Of a stretch of 64,000 bases of DNA, positions 14,834-21,464 are shown piece after piece (position 1 is the first letter of the stretch; every line of letters starts with the position of its first letter). The DNA comes from Candidatus Latescibacterota bacterium (lineage in GTDB: Bacteria; Latescibacterota; UBA2968; UBA8231). The notes under the pieces are model-generated. The model searched no databases and was not told the origin of the DNA. It saw only the letters and a list, made by a program, of their open reading frames with translations. The stretch covers positions 384,001 through 448,000 of the forward strand of contig CBDCXV010000010.1 of NCBI GenBank assembly GCA_965223905.1, in the 5' to 3' direction. The position numbers and the translations under genes are program-made.

Positions 14834-15284
14834 CTATACCCAGCGGGCGGATGGATCAGGAGGGCGAATCGGCAAAGGAGGGGGTGTCTGATCCGGACAG
14901 TCGGCTGGAAGGGTGTAGTCTCCCAGTTCGGGTTCGAGGTAGGTAAGGCCATATGCAACAGCCATTCGGGAGAATGGCCCTCTACCATCGAGGGAGTCGT
15001 AGTCATCGGGTTCCGGTAATGCTGCCACCGGGTAGCGTACGTACTGCTGAGTAAGCTGTCTCCACCAAGGTCTCGCGAAGGCCTCCTGTGCCCCAACAAC
15101 CTCGGCTCCACCACCAGTGAGAAATACCTCCACTCGATGCCAAGGACCTTCCTTATGCAGATGTTTGTATGCCTCCGTCCAGACGGGTCGAGCTTCCTTG
15201 TGAATCATTGACAGAATCTTCTTTACACCATCTACCAAGTCCAGCTGCGTCCCCCGCCGCAGCCCGTTGATCTTCTCACTGATC
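14834..15284 (-). pseudogene. Hsp70/actin-fold ATPase, C-terminal part (after the IS)
   Basis: ISEKINGLRRGTQLDLVDG...VFLTGGGA...MAVAYGL: adenosine and connect-2 motifs, in frame with the upstream part once the IS is removed. Confidence 0.8.
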
Positions 15285-16859
15285 GGGTGTCTTAGCTGAT
15301 TGTTACGGTTTCGGTGGTTGTTTTTAGGTTTTCTCGGTACTGCTGAAAGACCCGGTCAAGCGTTCCATTGTACAAGGCGCAGCGCAGGGCCAGAATGGCG
15401 TTGCTGTTTTCCTTATACCACCAAGCGCCCGACCGTTTCAGACGAACGTGGCCGATGAAGCGATGCGCCGATTCGATCGCCCCCGACCCGATCGGGTATC
15501 CGCCCTTGCGATGGCTGCCGAAATCGACCTGGTGCAGTCGCTTTTGCAGGTAGGTCAAGGCCGTGCCGATGGCCTCTCCGGCCTCTTCCGAGAGCGGCTG
15601 CATGCGCTGCAGACCCCAGACCACGCCGCTGCCCTCGCCGCAGAACAGGCGCGCCAGGGTCGCTTCCAGCCAATGGGCAGCACGCGCCGCATCGGCGCCG
15701 TATTGGGCCTCGGCCACCGCGTGCAGGTAGCTGCTGCAATGGTAGTAGTCGAGGATCTGACGGGCGCTCGGGAACAGCTCTTCCACCCACTTCCAGATCC
15801 ACGGAGCGCCATCTCCGATGGCACACAAGCGCACCTGATCCTCCGGGATCAGCCCCGCCTCCTTGACCTGGCGCAAGGCCGCGCCGAAGGCCTGTTCGTT
15901 GCCCATCTGGTGCCAGGAGATCAGCTGCTCGATGCGCTCATCGTCTATCAGGTAGAAGCGAAAGCCCTTGGCTTCGTGGTATTCCCCCTGCCAACGCCTT
16001 CGCCGAGCCCGGCTCTTCTTGCGTCCGGGACGGGTGCCTTTGGCGGTCTGGGGACGACTGGGCACGTCGGCCGCGTCGATGGCCAACACCACGATCGGCC
16101 GCCACTTGCGACCGGCGGCGGCTTGCGCAATGCGATCCTGGATATCGGCCGCGTCCGGACACACCTGCAGCACGTCCAACGACCCGGTCTGTTGCAGCAC
16201 CTCGTGAATCACACAATCGCTCATCGACGCGTCGGTGAGCTCGTCCAACAGTTCGGCGGCGCGCCGGTGGGGCATCTCCAGCCCCAGCTTGACCCCGGCC
16301 TGCTGCACGTCCCACTGCTTGCGCTGCGCCGACAGGCCCAGGGCCTCGTCCAGCGGATAGAACCCGTGGTGACAGCCAACGCAGTAGAAATAGGGACGCT
16401 CCAAGGTCACCGGCCCGAGCAGCGTCTCCACCGTGCGCGAGCGAGACGGGCGCGCTCGCAGCAGGCCTTTGCACTTGGGGCAGGCCGCCTCTTCCTGGGC
16501 CAGGAAATGGCCGTGGCGGCGTTCGACGAAGGCTTCCACCAAGGCCGCGGTGAGCCCGGAGCGCTCTTGAGACATCGCCGCGGTGATCTCCATCAACGTC
16601 GGCGCACAAGATCCGCGCTCGCTCATTTGCGTCTCCACCCGATCCAGCCATTGGTCCAAGGCTTCATGCGCCCGGCTTCGAAAGCGGTCCTGACTCTGCC
16701 GCTCCTGAAAAACTTCCAGAGAGAGAATCGCACTCATCGCTCCCCTTCTTTCTGAAATCAGGGGAGCGCGCCGCAGGGGATGCGGAAAAAGAAAGCAACT
16801 TACTGTAAAATATACACATACGCACCTGAATTGCGCTATAACAATTACTTAAGACGCCC
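15285..16859 (-). mobile_element. ISKra4-family (prokaryotic Mutator-like) insertion sequence, 1575 bp
   Basis: Terminal inverted repeats GGGTGTCTTAGCTGATTGTTA / GGGCGTCTTAAGTAATTGTTA; 8-bp target duplication CACTGATC at 15277-15284 and 16860-16867. Confidence 0.9.
15292..16737 (-). CDS. ISKra4/UPF0236-type DDE transposase
   Basis: CPKC, LERPYFYCVGC..GFYPLDEALGL, GDGAPWIW, ILDYYH, PIGSGAIES, RLKRSGAWW. Confidence 0.9.
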   Translation of the reverse strand: MSAILSLEVFQERQSQDRFRSRAHEALDQWLDRVETQMSERGSCAPTLMEITAAMSQERSGLTAALVEAFVERRHGHFLAQEEAACPKCKGLLRARPSRSRTVETLLGPVTLERPYFYCVGCHHGFYPLDEALGLSAQRKQWDVQQAGVKLGLEMPHRRAAELLDELTDASMSDCVIHEVLQQTGSLDVLQVCPDAADIQDRIAQAAAGRKWRPIVVLAIDAADVPSRPQTAKGTRPGRKKSRARRRRWQGEYHEAKGFRFYLIDDERIEQLISWHQMGNEQAFGAALRQVKEAGLIPEDQVRLCAIGDGAPWIWKWVEELFPSARQILDYYHCSSYLHAVAEAQYGADAARAAHWLEATLARLFCGEGSGVVWGLQRMQPLSEEAGEAIGTALTYLQKRLHQVDFGSHRKGGYPIGSGAIESAHRFIGHVRLKRSGAWWYKENSNAILALRCALYNGTLDRVFQQYRENLKTTTETVTIS

Positions 16860-17997
16860 CACTGATCTGCCCGGCCGTAAGGCCGCCTGCTCCATTCATT
16901 CCAACAAGCCGCTCGATGGCCAGCCCACCGATCGGCAGATTTCCGGACGAATACCAGTAACAGTGCTCTCCGGTTGGTTCATCAGCAAGATTAAAGAAGG
17001 AAACATCGGTCGTGCCCGCACCGATATCGATGAGGGCATGAAGTCCGGGCCTACGTCGAAGCGACGAAACATAGGAGGCGGCTTCCGCCACGGACTCGGG
17101 TATCACAAAGACTCTTTCAGGTTCAGGCTCCAAGGAGGGTGCTTCCTCCAAGGGGGGTGCTTCATAGGAACTGTAATTTCCAGCCAACCACTCCGTTCTT
17201 GACCCGTATGGCCAGTCCCTTTCTACTGCCTCGGCCTTTGCCAGGATCTGTCTGAAGGCGTTCAGCACAGGATTGGATTCTACGTGCTGCATGGGAAGAC
17301 AGACGTTGTACAGGAACTCCAGCCTGCTGTTCACATATTCTGGCAGCTCGCTGATGCGTCGCCGAGCTTCTCGCATCGCATATGCGAGATAAACGAAGGA
17401 AACTGTCCCTGGCGTCAGGACTCCCCCATTGATGGGATGCATCCGGGCATAGCGTTCGAATCCATCACTCAATTCCCCGGTTTCAAGGCCCGAATCACGC
17501 GATGCAACAAGCACCTTGAAGGCTCGCAGGGCCTCATCCCATGACCGGTCCCTCATCTGGCTGGCTGCTTCCTCTCCAACCAGCATTCTGCCATCGCCGT
17601 CGACCATCGCCAAGGTTGGCAGACCAAATGCGGGAACCCCTGGAAGACAATGATCGAAGATCAAAGGCTTTACTTCCCCTCGAGGACTCACTTGCCGGTA
17701 GGCGATCTTCGTGGTGCTCGTGCCGAAATCGATCCCGACCTGGATGATCGCGGCTCGTCTGGGCACTTCCTTTCTTGCCCTCGCTTGCGGAGATTGCGAC
17801 CTCTTCGCCCCAGGGCTCCCTGCCGATGGGGAGTCCTGGCCGATGCCTGAAGGTGACGTGGAACCCCCTTGGTTCCGGAGACATGAACGTTCTTCGTTTT
17901 CCTGGGCAGGTTCCTTCCGACCCTTGCCTTTCCCTTGTCTCTCGCGCCGGACGTTACCGGCTATGGACTTCCAAAATGCCCGCAGCAATTTCATCAT
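16860..17997 (-). pseudogene. Hsp70/actin-fold ATPase, N-terminal part (interrupted by the IS)
   Basis: VGIDFGTSTTK (phosphate 1), VIPESVAEA (connect 1), IDIGAGTTD (phosphate 2). Start overlaps the helicase 3' end. Confidence 0.8.
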
Positions 17998-20900: not shown

Positions 20901-21220
20901 TCGTTCCAACTCACCCTGTAAAACTGAATCAAGCCACCATGATTCGGTCCGATTTCCAGGACCACCCCAATTATGCCGGTGTCTGCAATGAATTGTACTT
21001 GATCACCGGGTTTGAACTTTGGCCCCTTCGGGATTTTCTGTTTGCCACGGATACGTCGATAACGCTCGACAATATGGGGGACTACCTCACTTGCCGGGCG
21101 CATACGCGCAATTTCTTCGCCGGTAAGTTCCCGTGTGTCCGGATCGGCGGCGATGGCAGCACGGATTTCGATGTCCTCCTCTTTTGTTGGGAGAACCATT
21201 CTATTTTTGTCTTTTGGCAT
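17954..21220 (-). CDS. SNF2/RapA-like helicase with fused N-terminal BrnA-antitoxin segment (1088 aa)
   Basis: [48 protein letters not shown]. Residues 1-65 ([33 protein letters not shown]...RGKQKIPK) resemble a BrnA N-terminus. Confidence 0.85.
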   Translation of the reverse strand: [1088 protein letters not shown]

Positions 21221-21464
21221 ATTCGCGGGCCTCGCTTCTGGTGGCCTTGCGCAGGCTGATAATTCGGGTGTCCCTGCTCTGGTCTGCGAAGACAACAACG
21301 TGAAGATTTGCGCCGATAAAACCCGTGGCGATCCAGCGGGATTCGGCGTGATCTCCATCCATATCAACTACAGCGTTTTCCCACTCAAATGCCTCCATGT
21401 CGACAAAGTCCACGCCATGTTTCGTCAAATTGCCTCGCCGTTTGTCTTCGTCCCATTGGTACAT
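21201..21464 (-). CDS. brnT: BrnT family toxin (DUF497)
   Basis: YQWDEDKRRGNLTKHGVDF...ESRWIATG...RIISLRKATRSE, a classic BrnT; overlaps the next start by 20 nt. Confidence 0.9.
   Translation of the reverse strand: MYQWDEDKRRGNLTKHGVDFVDMEAFEWENAVVDMDGDHAESRWIATGFIGANLHVVVFADQSRDTRIISLRKATRSEAREYAKRQK

What the first reader, a model, noticed from the sequence alone, without database searches (positions are those of the whole stretch)
14834..21464. Candidate undescribed defence system: BrnT toxin, BrnA(N)-SNF2 helicase fusion, Hsp70/actin-fold ATPase
Seen: three overlapping, co-oriented genes. brnT overlaps a 1088-aa ORF by 20 nt. Its first ~65 aa look like a BrnA N-terminus and run in frame at ~21026 into a full SNF2 helicase, with no separate ATG before the helicase body. 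The C-terminal RHH DNA-binding domain of BrnA is absent. The helicase overlaps a 526-aa (reconstructed) ATPase that has the five actin/Hsp70 motifs but no obvious DnaK substrate-binding domain. Established: BrnT is a RelE-fold RNase, SNF2 helicases occur in anti-phage systems such as DISARM, and chaperone-gated TA modules exist (TAC). Inference: the toxin-binding segment may be tethered to a helicase sensor that releases BrnT on infection. Alternatively, this is a chance fusion that put a helicase-ATPase pair under a TA promoter. I know of no named system with this architecture.
Basis: partly seen in the sequence, partly recalled or inferred. Interest (0 to 1): 0.85.

Follow-up and report, generated by a model that had tools for sequence, protein, structure and literature searches.

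The report
BrnT toxin tethered to SNF2 helicase
A small RNase toxin gene sits in front of a large SNF2 helicase that has replaced its own start with the toxin-binding piece of the matching antitoxin, so a widespread but undescribed helicase/Hsp70-like gene pair found in defence islands appears to have been armed with, or taken hostage by, a toxin.

Summary
All genes are on the minus strand. brnT (21201-21464) overlaps by 20 nt a 1088-aa ORF. Its first ~64 residues are homologous to the N-terminal half of BrnA antitoxins. The rest is a DrmD-like SNF2 helicase. The next gene encodes an Hsp70 nucleotide-binding-domain ATPase. In this assembly it is split by a 1575-bp ISKra4-type IS, and IS-free alleles exist in other samples.

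The helicase/ATPase pair is an unnamed two-gene module. It is adjacent in 27 of 34 loci from many bacterial and archaeal phyla, often beside defence genes and without BrnT.

The BrnA-N graft is rare but not unique, and it is not an assembly artefact. Five other protein clusters keep it, and contigs from two other studies cross the junction. A second, independent brnT/BrnA-N::SNF2 fusion, paired with a Tiamat-like ATPase, lies elsewhere in the same genome.

Complex modelling supports BrnT binding to the graft (ipSAE 0.62, best control 0.01).

Release of BrnT on infection is untested. In relatives of the second locus brnT has decayed while the helicase pair persists, which keeps an addiction or accident reading alive. 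The closest published precedent is IetHAS. I rate this a new variant of a known kind, of moderate to high interest.

The parts
21201..21464 (-). brnT, 87-aa RelE-fold RNase toxin of the BrnT family
   Evidence: Pfam BrnT_toxin 2.6e-22, 79.3 bits (cut-off 34.5), profile 1-77/77. Solved relatives are 7vd7 and 3u97.
21029..21220 (-). BrnA-N graft: residues 1-64 of the 1088-aa ORF, the toxin-side half of a BrnA antitoxin. Its ATG overlaps brnT by 20 nt.
   Evidence: phmmer gave 249 hits, best 1.4e-19. BrnA_antitoxin is present in 16 of 30 hits scanned. Alignment. It is 80% identical to the N-segment of a canonical BrnA whose operon has the same 20-nt overlap (L126). Modelled interface with BrnT covers residues 7-57.
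17954..21028 (-). Variable linker (about residues 58-68) and DrmD-like SNF2 helicase body (residues 69-1088, stop included)
   Evidence: PADLOC DrmD PDLC02623 2.1e-172 over residues 69-1039. Pfam SNF2-rel_dom, Helicase_C and ResIII. NCBIfam DISARM_DrmD scores 344 bits, below its cut-off of 610. Linker identity is 5-6 of 11, against 75-85% for the body.
16860..17997 (-). 5' part of the Hsp70-NBD-like ATPase gene (overlaps the helicase end by 44 nt), up to the IS. Includes one copy of the 8-bp target duplication (16860-16867).
   Evidence: 64 homologues of about 520 aa. Conserved phosphate-1, phosphate-2 and adenosine motifs. Model pLDDT 82.6. Foldseek top hits are DnaK/BiP NBDs, E 6e-14.
15285..16859 (-). 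ISKra4-family insertion sequence (transposase 15292-16737) interrupting the ATPase gene
   Evidence: NCBIfam transpos_ISKra4 250 bits, cut-off 205. Inverted repeats 15285-15305 / 16839-16859. 14 copies at 99.8-100% identity in the genome. Contigs of runs X3 and X5 join 15276 to 16860, skipping 1583 bases.
14834..15284 (-). 3' part of the ATPase gene, including the second copy of the target duplication (15277-15284)
   Evidence: 100% identical to residues 374-520 of the IS-free protein P0001.
21465..21590 (-). Intergenic leader upstream of brnT, the presumed operon promoter region. The consensus scan called no promoter here.
   Evidence: Sequence read. The scan of 14600-21800 found no site in this stretch. 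Upstream lies only a 3' fragment of a 2-hydroxyacid dehydrogenase gene.

Best explanation
The locus is a composite. Its core is a horizontally acquired two-gene module: a DrmD-like SNF2 helicase and an Hsp70 nucleotide-binding-domain ATPase. This module occurs on its own in many bacterial and archaeal phyla, mostly in defence-gene neighbourhoods.

In one small clade a canonical brnT-brnA operon was joined to this module. BrnA's C-terminal DNA-binding half was replaced in frame by the helicase. The helicase therefore carries the about 64-residue BrnT-binding peptide at its N-terminus and acts as the antitoxin. That it binds is supported by homology and modelling. That it neutralises the toxin is inferred.

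BrnT control is thereby coupled to the amount, integrity or conformational state of the helicase. Loss of the repressor half means the operon is no longer autoregulated by BrnA (inferred).

The most likely working mode is a toxin-armed version of the helicase module. BrnT would be a latent RNase arm that is freed, stopping translation and aborting infection, when the helicase is engaged on foreign DNA, inhibited, degraded or no longer made. This is analogous to the published IetHAS system, where a DrmD-like helicase is needed for defence and its mutation unleashes toxicity.

In this assembly the ATPase gene is broken by a recent IS insertion, so the sensing half is probably inactive here. The brnT/fusion pair remains intact.
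For: Anatomy and homology.

Origin from a canonical operon: the canonical brnTA pair in L126 has the same 20-nt overlap and an N-segment 80% identical to the graft.

Binding: ipSAE 0.62 in three runs (0.60-0.62) against a best control of 0.01. Partner pLDDT is at least 71 and at least 95% of contacts agree between runs. In the tool's calibration the mark was reached by 58 of 80 solved complexes and 2 of 110 mismatched pairs. These counts hold only roughly, because my own alignments were used. No BrnA-N relative is in the PDB, so the pass is not from a solved like complex.

Selection on the graft: five other 1088-1089-aa clusters keep it. Identity over residues 1-57 is 67-89%, against 75-85% for the helicase body, while the linker is free to vary.

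The junction is real: contigs of X3 (20924-21254) and X5 (20513-21254), from two other studies, cross it.

Core module: the helicase is adjacent to the ATPase in 27 of 34 loci. 28 of 121 flanking proteins hit PADLOC at E<=1e-15, in 16 of 25 loci with flanks; one of the 28 is an IstB false hit. No genome-wide baseline was run.

Horizontal acquisition: island GC is 52-57% against 64-70% in the flanks. The ATPase query found matches in only 3 of 75 other genomes of the family, and those were weak or partial.

Recurrence: a second brnT/BrnA-N::DrmD-like helicase with a Tiamat-like third gene lies in the same genome.

Precedent: IetHAS and DarHTG (PMC13069673, section 22 read). RelE-like RNase domains fused to defence helicases appear in ARMADA and in Tiamat neighbourhoods (passages).
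Against: No experiment supports it, and the defence role of the SNF2/Hsp70-NBD pair rests on gene context only.

The pair lacks BrnT in every locus outside this genome. My BrnT profile gave 0 hits in 112 non-own helicase loci. The toxin is therefore an accessory, not a core effector.

In relatives of the second fusion, brnT is reduced to 29-aa and 12-aa remnants in two genomes (L137, L138). The graft is eroded to a short remnant in five further loci, four of them with the Tiamat-like gene still adjacent. Toxin loss is tolerated there.

An active toxin alone would maintain selection on the graft, so conservation does not prove a defence function.

A peptide fused to a large, presumably stable helicase lacks the lability usual for type II antitoxins, and no release mechanism is evident.

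I could not test whether brnT accompanies the five other fused helicases. The closest BrnT homologues are only 60-67% identical, and their recorded contig lengths differ from those of the fused helicases.
Confidence: 0.5

Rival explanations
1. Addiction or accident. A deletion joined the 5' half of brnA to the neighbouring helicase gene. Cells survive only if the graft still neutralises BrnT, so the fusion is kept by the toxin itself. At most it stabilises the island against loss. BrnT has no role in sensing or stopping phage.
For: - The helicase/ATPase module is complete without BrnT in 27 other loci.
- In the parallel Tiamat-linked lineage brnT decays and the graft then erodes.
- In both loci of this genome an IS has hit the third gene while brnT and the fusion stay intact. 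This is what addiction predicts, though with only two cases.
- Close helicase relatives P0071 and P0072 lack the graft.
Against: - Two independent grafts onto the same helicase family, with different BrnA N-segments, are more than a single accident.
- Published TA-plus-helicase systems show such couplings can be functional.
- Classical addiction needs an antitoxin less stable than its toxin, which is not obvious for a 1088-aa helicase.
Confidence: 0.3
2. The helicase/Hsp70-NBD pair is not a defence system but a RapA-like transcription or DNA-maintenance factor. The brnT graft is then an ordinary stress-responsive TA remnant riding on it.
For: - The helicase also resembles RapA: NCBIfam PRK04914 at 233.6 bits, below its cut-off of 576.
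- Several loci have only metabolic neighbours, for example L001, L019 and L023.
- No named defence model matches the ATPase.
Against: - The distribution is patchy. The ATPase query found only weak or partial matches in 3 of 75 other genomes of the family, and GC is atypical.
- Neighbours are variable and rich in restriction, AbiE, Ssp, retron-type RT and similar genes.
- The best helicase models are defence helicases: DrmD, BrxH, HmaA, DpdE.
Confidence: 0.12
3. The graft no longer binds BrnT, or BrnT is inactive. The N-terminal 64 residues would be a neutral leftover leader.
For: Pfam scores the graft below threshold. There is no experimental evidence of toxicity.
Against: - The BrnT profile match is full length.
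- The graft is conserved like the helicase body while the linker varies.
- The complex model passes its controls.
- Where brnT is lost in the parallel lineage the graft does erode, which implies it is otherwise under selection.
Confidence: 0.06

Closest known systems
IetHAS (and DarHTG): toxin-antitoxin-type defence systems that recruited a helicase (PMC13069673, section 22 read)
   Same: A DrmD-like SNF2 helicase is encoded with a toxin/antitoxin pair. In IetHAS the helicase is required for defence and its mutation is cytotoxic, that is, it behaves like an antitoxin.
   Different: There the toxin is a protease (IetS) with a separate ATPase antitoxin (IetA), and the helicase is a free third protein. 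Here the toxin is the RNase BrnT and there is no free antitoxin. The antitoxin peptide is covalently part of the helicase, and the third gene is an Hsp70-NBD ATPase. No IetA or IetS model matched.
Canonical BrnT/BrnA type II toxin-antitoxin operon
   Same: Same toxin family, same gene order, same 20-nt overlap. The N-segment of the antitoxin is 80% identical to that of a canonical pair (L126).
   Different: The C-terminal half of BrnA is absent and replaced by about 1020 residues of helicase. That this half is the DNA-binding, autoregulatory part is recalled from the literature, not tested here.
DISARM class 1 helicase DrmD
   Same: The best PADLOC model for the helicase body is DrmD (2.1e-172, near full length).
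   Different: There is no DrmA, DrmB (DUF1998), DrmC or methylase. The island holds three genes plus an IS between metabolic genes. The NCBIfam DISARM_DrmD equivalog score is 344, below its cut-off of 610.
Defence helicases with a fused RelE-like RNase domain (ARMADA ArmD; a helicase of Tiamat neighbourhood type I-K; passages seen in PMC12458937 and 10.64898/2026.09.30.754977)
   Same: A RelE-fold RNase is physically coupled to a helicase of a multi-gene defence locus.
   Different: There the RNase is fused covalently to the helicase. Here the RNase is a free protein held through a grafted antitoxin peptide, which in principle allows release.
Toxin-antitoxin-chaperone (TAC) systems and PrrC-EcoprrI (both recalled, not read here)
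   Same: Toxin control depends on a third, larger partner. In PrrC-EcoprrI a latent RNase is kept silent by association with a restriction complex.
   Different: The TAC chaperone is SecB-like and serves the antitoxin. Here the Hsp70-NBD protein lacks a substrate-binding domain and is the helicase's ancestral partner in loci without any TA. PrrC is unrelated to BrnT, and no antitoxin peptide is involved.

Membership tests
BrnT toxin (Pfam PF04365) | Full-length match above the curated cut-off | tested here: met
   79.3 bits against a cut-off of 34.5, profile 1-77/77
BrnA antitoxin (Pfam PF14384) | N-terminal segment homologous to that of BrnA proteins encoded after brnT | tested here: met
   phmmer best hit 1.4e-19, 249 hits. 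16 of 30 hits scanned are BrnA_antitoxin. 80% identical to the BrnA of a canonical pair.
BrnA antitoxin (Pfam PF14384) | Whole domain, including the C-terminal half, above the curated cut-off | tested here: not met
   13.1 bits against a cut-off of 26.1, and only profile positions 1-34 of 68. The alignment shows the C-terminal half replaced by the helicase.
DISARM class 1 | SNF2 helicase of the DrmD type | tested here: inconclusive
   PADLOC DrmD model 2.1e-172, but the NCBIfam equivalog scores 344 bits against a cut-off of 610
DISARM class 1 | Neighbouring DrmA, DrmB (DUF1998), methylase and optionally DrmC | tested here: not met
   Only brnT, the helicase, the ATPase and an IS lie between a creatininase gene and a dehydrogenase fragment
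Hsp70 / actin-fold ATPases | Nucleotide-binding-domain fold with conserved phosphate-1, phosphate-2 and adenosine motifs | tested here: met
   Model pLDDT 82.6. Top Foldseek hits are DnaK/BiP NBDs, E 6e-14, TM up to 0.62 normalised to an NBD-only target. Invariant columns include D90/G92/K97, D318/G320/G322/T323/T324/D325 and G428/G429.
Hsp70 chaperones proper | Pfam HSP70 above cut-off, and a C-terminal substrate-binding domain | tested here: not met
   No HSP70 hit for the window's protein. 10 of 38 family members hit weakly. The 520-aa protein has residues 1-71 disordered, then the NBD, with few strands after residue 430.
PADLOC candidate system PDC-M61 | Full-length match to PDC-M61B | tested here: not met
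   Only 43 residues around the phosphate-2 motif match (1.3e-05). The same model gives three equally weak hits in the genome.
TAC (toxin-antitoxin-chaperone) | A dedicated chaperone that co-occurs with, and serves, the antitoxin | tested here: not met
   The ATPase co-occurs with the helicase in 27 of 34 loci that have no BrnT, and it has no substrate-binding domain
IetHAS-type helicase-assisted TA defence | The helicase is needed for defence and restrains the toxin | not testable with these tools
   Needs phage challenge and toxicity assays. Only the architecture is analogous.

The most novel reading that the evidence does not exclude
Two things may be new.

First, the DrmD-like SNF2 helicase plus Hsp70-NBD ATPase pair may be a widespread, so far unnamed anti-phage system.

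Second, 'antitoxin-peptide grafting' may be a general evolutionary route by which defence helicases acquire a releasable RNase effector. The helicase's ATP-driven conformational cycle, possibly remodelled by the Hsp70-like partner, would unmask BrnT on contact with phage DNA. That would make a helicase-gated toxin-antitoxin switch that arose at least twice in one genome.
Probability: 0.22. Interest if true: 0.85.

Novelty: new variant of a known kind. Interest (0 to 1): 0.62.

Why it matters
If the graft works as modelled, this is a natural case of a defence helicase that is itself the antitoxin of a free RNase toxin. It shows a simple route, one in-frame deletion, by which modular defence systems pick up abortive-infection effectors. 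It gives a clean test bed for how helicase state is transduced to toxin release, with a 64-residue peptide, a small toxin and IS-free alleles available. It also flags an uncharacterised SNF2/Hsp70-NBD gene pair, spread across bacteria and archaea in defence neighbourhoods, as a candidate system. The decayed relatives offer the counter-example needed to ask whether such toxins are effectors or selfish passengers.

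Tried and rejected
Searches that found nothing useful:
- Single-sequence scans of genome contigs with the ATPase N-part and with residues 1-140 of the fusion found no relatives. The patterns were exact 8-mers of the window.
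- An alignment-based scan with the eight close helicases found nothing above 52% identity.
- The metagenome scan returned canonical brnTA pairs, not fused helicases.

Those fields are incomplete, so I treat this as untested.

Families considered and rejected:
- PDC-M61 membership.
- CoCoNuT Hsp70-like CnuD. It sits in a different context, with McrBC partners.
- DISARM.

Other items:
- L054's apparent match from residue 34 contains a stop and is an alignment artefact.
- RNA run X10 holds two short, error-free contigs inside the helicase (18192-18380 and 20355-20518) and many on the IS. DNA carry-over cannot be excluded, so this is not used as evidence of expression.
- The promoter scan found nothing upstream of brnT.
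- The search of earlier findings was not open.

Literature searches for an SNF2/Hsp70 pair or a BrnA-helicase fusion found no description. Supplements were not seen and may list such operons, for example the candidate tables of PMC13069673 and the PADLOC candidate lists.

Full report
**What is in the sequence**

All genes lie on the minus strand.
- brnT is 21201-21464, 87 aa. It matches Pfam BrnT_toxin at 2.6e-22 over the whole profile.
- Its stop overlaps by 20 nt (21201-21220) the ATG of a 1088-aa ORF that ends at 17954.
- From residue 69 this ORF is an SNF2 helicase, with SNF2-rel_dom, Helicase_C and ResIII.
- The best PADLOC model is DrmD PDLC02623, 2.1e-172, covering residues 69-1039.
- The NCBIfam DISARM_DrmD equivalog scores 344 bits, below its cut-off of 610.
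- No start codon lies in frame between residue 40 and the helicase body, so the N-terminal extension is translated.
- The next gene (ATG 17997, 44-nt overlap) is cut by a 1575-bp ISKra4-family IS at 15285-16859. The transposase scores 250 bits against a cut-off of 205. The IS has 21-nt inverted repeats and an 8-bp target duplication at 15277-15284 and 16860-16867.
- The island has 52-57% GC against 64-70% in its flanks.
- It sits between a creatininase gene and a 3' fragment of a 2-hydroxyacid dehydrogenase gene.

**The N-terminal extension is the toxin-side half of BrnA**

Pfam alone is weak: 13.1 bits, E 0.13, profile positions 1-34 of 68. phmmer of residues 1-66 against 1.84 billion cluster representatives is much clearer.
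- It found 249 proteins at E<=1e-3 and 16 at E<=1e-10, best 1.4e-19. Most are 60-145 aa.
- Of the 30 I scanned, 16 carry BrnA_antitoxin, 11 of them at E<=1e-10. The other 14 have no BrnA hit.
- The alignment shows colinearity up to a basic 'RGKQK.P' stretch. After it, canonical BrnA proteins continue into their C-terminal half, and the window's protein continues into the helicase.

A canonical brnT-brnA pair in a metagenome contig has the same 20-nt overlap. Its BrnT is L126:4757-5020 and its BrnA is L126:5001-5318; both pass Pfam. Its BrnA N-segment is 80% identical to the window's residues 1-64.

The same N-segment also occurs in front of other C-terminal domains: a P63C domain in P0084 and an HTH antidote domain in P0094. 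It behaves as a transferable module.

**Does the extension bind BrnT?**

I modelled BrnT (alignment of 22) with residues 1-70 of the fusion (alignment of 55).
- ipSAE was 0.60-0.62 in three runs, against 0.01 for the best of three controls.
- Partner pLDDT was at least 71, and at least 95% of contacts agreed between runs.
- The interface covers residues 7-57 of the graft.
- In the tool's calibration this mark was reached by 58 of 80 solved complexes and 2 of 110 mismatched pairs. These counts hold only roughly for my own alignments.
- The PDB holds BrnT alone (3u97, 7vd7) and nothing related to the graft. The pass is therefore not recalled from a solved like complex.

This supports binding. 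It does not show it.

**The fusion is neither unique nor an artefact**

- A search restricted to residues 1-140 found six proteins of 1088-1089 aa that cover the whole stretch. One is from a near-identical genome; five are 69-81% identical. Two close relatives of 1026 and 1010 aa lack the extension.
- Identity to the near-identical P0065 (one residue different from the window's protein), which heads alignment A4, is 67-89% over residues 1-57 and 75-85% over the helicase body. It is only 5-6 of 11 in the linker.
- The eight helicases form one clade (support 100/100). Whether the two unfused ones are nested within it is unresolved.
- Contigs of two other studies cross the junction: X3 at 20924-21254 and X5 at 20513-21254.
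- X3 and X5 also hold the IS-free allele, with a joint from 15276 to 16860 that skips 1583 bases. X1 does not; it is the best holder, possibly the source sample, and shows the IS junction instead.
- The IS-free protein P0001 (520 aa) has exactly the junction predicted from the target duplication. It also carries the 18-nt deletion seen in X3.
- The IS has 14 copies at 99.8-100% identity in the genome, so the insertion is recent.

**The helicase/ATPase pair is the older unit**

- The ATPase has 64 homologues of about 520 aa. They have no Pfam family of their own and sit in language-model clusters named 'hypothetical protein'.
- Phosphate-1, phosphate-2 and adenosine motifs are invariant.
- The model (pLDDT 82.6; residues 1-71 disordered) is an Hsp70 nucleotide-binding domain without a substrate-binding domain. 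DnaK/BiP are the top hits, E 6e-14.
- In 34 loci from species-representative genomes, the related helicase lies directly beside the ATPase gene in 27. It is upstream in 26 and downstream in L009. One further locus has a distant SNF2 gene 3 kb away. Six have none, or are cut by a contig end.
- The 27 come from many bacterial phyla and two archaeal lineages.
- Their helicases start at most about 40 residues before the 'KFKPGD'-equivalent segment, with a few longer open frames of unrelated sequence.
- No BrnT was found by tblastn or by my own BrnT profile over all six frames. The profile gave 3 hits in 125 loci, all three in this genome, so 0 of 112 foreign helicase loci.
- Neighbours are variable. 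28 of 121 flanking proteins hit PADLOC at E<=1e-15, in 16 of 25 loci that had flanks; one of the 28 is an IstB false hit. The hits include type I and III restriction enzymes, AbiE, DarG, SspA/H, a retron-type RT, PDC-S68, Mokosh-like genes and WYL regulators. I ran no genome-wide baseline.
- Within the window's own taxonomic family, the ATPase query found only weak or partial matches in 3 of 75 other genomes.

**A second, independent case in the same genome**

On contig C11 (locus L047, minus strand):
- A 100-aa BrnT (Pfam 1.3e-26) overlaps by 35 nt a 1055-aa DrmD-like helicase. The helicase hits the same PADLOC model at 4.6e-116, from residue 41, and is 31% identical to the window's helicase.
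- The third gene is Tiamat-like: Pfam SACS, and PADLOC TmtA at 1.9e-55.
- This third gene is also interrupted, by an ISL3 transposase gene. In a relative the two halves are contiguous.
- The helicase's N-terminus shares 11 of 13 residues (E 1e-6 for the pair) with the start of a short canonical BrnA encoded after a third brnT elsewhere on C11.

The two BrnTs are 34% identical, and the two grafts are of different BrnA types. I read these as separate events.

Homologues of this second helicase occur in 29 of 168 genomes of the phylum at E<=1e-60. 22 of the 29 other fetched loci show a Tiamat-like match beside the helicase. Among the eight closest relatives (80-84% identical):
- Three keep the graft. 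In two of them brnT is reduced to C-terminal remnants of 29 and 12 residues; in the third none is detectable.
- Five keep only a remnant of the graft.
- More distant clades have no extension, or a different N-domain of about 250 aa.

**Interpretation**

Shown:
- the gene anatomy;
- the homology of the graft;
- its recurrence and conservation;
- the reality of the junction;
- the independence of the helicase/ATPase pair from BrnT.

Supported but not shown: binding of BrnT to the graft.

Inferred:
- neutralisation of the toxin;
- loss of BrnA-type autoregulation;
- a defence role for the pair;
- any release mechanism.

I favour, at about 0.5, a toxin-armed helicase module in which BrnT is a latent RNase arm freed when the helicase is engaged, inhibited or depleted. 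Three points support this:
- the graft was made twice on the same helicase family;
- an experimentally tested system (IetHAS) shows a DrmD-like helicase that is both required for defence and toxin-restraining (PMC13069673, section 22 read);
- RelE-like RNases fused to defence helicases are reported (passages).

The main rival, at about 0.3, is that the fusion is an accident kept by addiction. It explains three things equally well or better: the decay series in the second lineage; the dispensability of BrnT for the pair; and the fact that in both loci the IS hit the third gene while brnT and the fusion stayed whole.

**Novelty**

Six full-text searches found no description of an SNF2/Hsp70-like pair or of a BrnA-helicase fusion. 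Supplements could not be seen. PADLOC v2 has no model for the ATPase beyond a 43-residue motif match to PDC-M61B. The architecture is therefore a new variant of the helicase-assisted toxin-antitoxin kind. Its core pair is a candidate new system.

Noticed in passing
L047 (G000:C11:2050000-2068000), minus strand: 15119-15421, 11986-15153, 10427-11983, 9076-10374, 7395-9059: A second operon of the same logic in the same genome: brnT, then a BrnA-N::DrmD-like SNF2 helicase, then a Tiamat-like GHKL ATPase gene split by an ISL3 transposase gene. Relatives in the phylum keep the helicase/Tiamat pair, but brnT is eroded to remnants.
   Followed up: yes
window 15285-16859 and 13 other places in G000: The ISKra4-family IS has 14 copies at 99.8-100% identity over 1575 bp, so the element has been active recently. 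In both brnT/helicase loci the third gene is the one hit by an IS.
   Followed up: partly
window 21591-22087 (-); L135-L139 upstream of the helicase: Only the C-terminal part of a 2-hydroxyacid dehydrogenase gene (Pfam profile positions 99-178 of 178) lies upstream of brnT, overlapped further up by a PhyH gene. In relatives of the second locus the helicase also sits directly after a complete 2-hydroxyacid dehydrogenase gene. By eye the proteins look only distantly alike, so this may be coincidence.
   Followed up: no
G000:C11:2042060-2042567 (L163:561-1068): A canonical brnT-brnA pair (BrnT 90 aa, BrnA 83 aa, both pass Pfam). The BrnA start matches the N-terminus of the second fused helicase.
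   Followed up: yes
window 17128 (18 nt): An 18-nt in-frame deletion polymorphism in the ATPase gene, seen in run X3. It corresponds to the six residues (EEAPSL) that P0001 lacks, giving 520 aa against 526 aa.
   Followed up: partly
proteins P0084, P0094, P0134, P0171 (hits): The BrnA N-segment also stands in front of other domains: a P63C domain in the 391-aa P0084, an HTH 'dnstrm_HI1420' antidote domain in P0094, and unknown sequence in the 251-aa P0134 and 198-aa P0171. This suggests a portable toxin-binding peptide.
   Followed up: partly
L005:8759-11149 and L006:9661-11490: Beside two of the SNF2/Hsp70-NBD pairs lie a 796-aa HSP70+TPR protein and a 609-aa DnaJ-domain protein. Further chaperone-type partners may belong to some versions of the module.
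   Followed up: no
window 21018-21251 in run X1: Contig depth rises about threefold over the BrnA-N coding stretch, with loose ends at 21122 and 21155. This is as expected if other brnA-like genes in the same sample share this short conserved segment.
   Followed up: no
P0001 residues 1-75 (window 17773-17997): The ATPase family starts with a short conserved helix (consensus MK.L..F.K.L) followed by about 60 disordered, low-complexity residues before the NBD. This may be a tethering peptide for the helicase.
   Followed up: no
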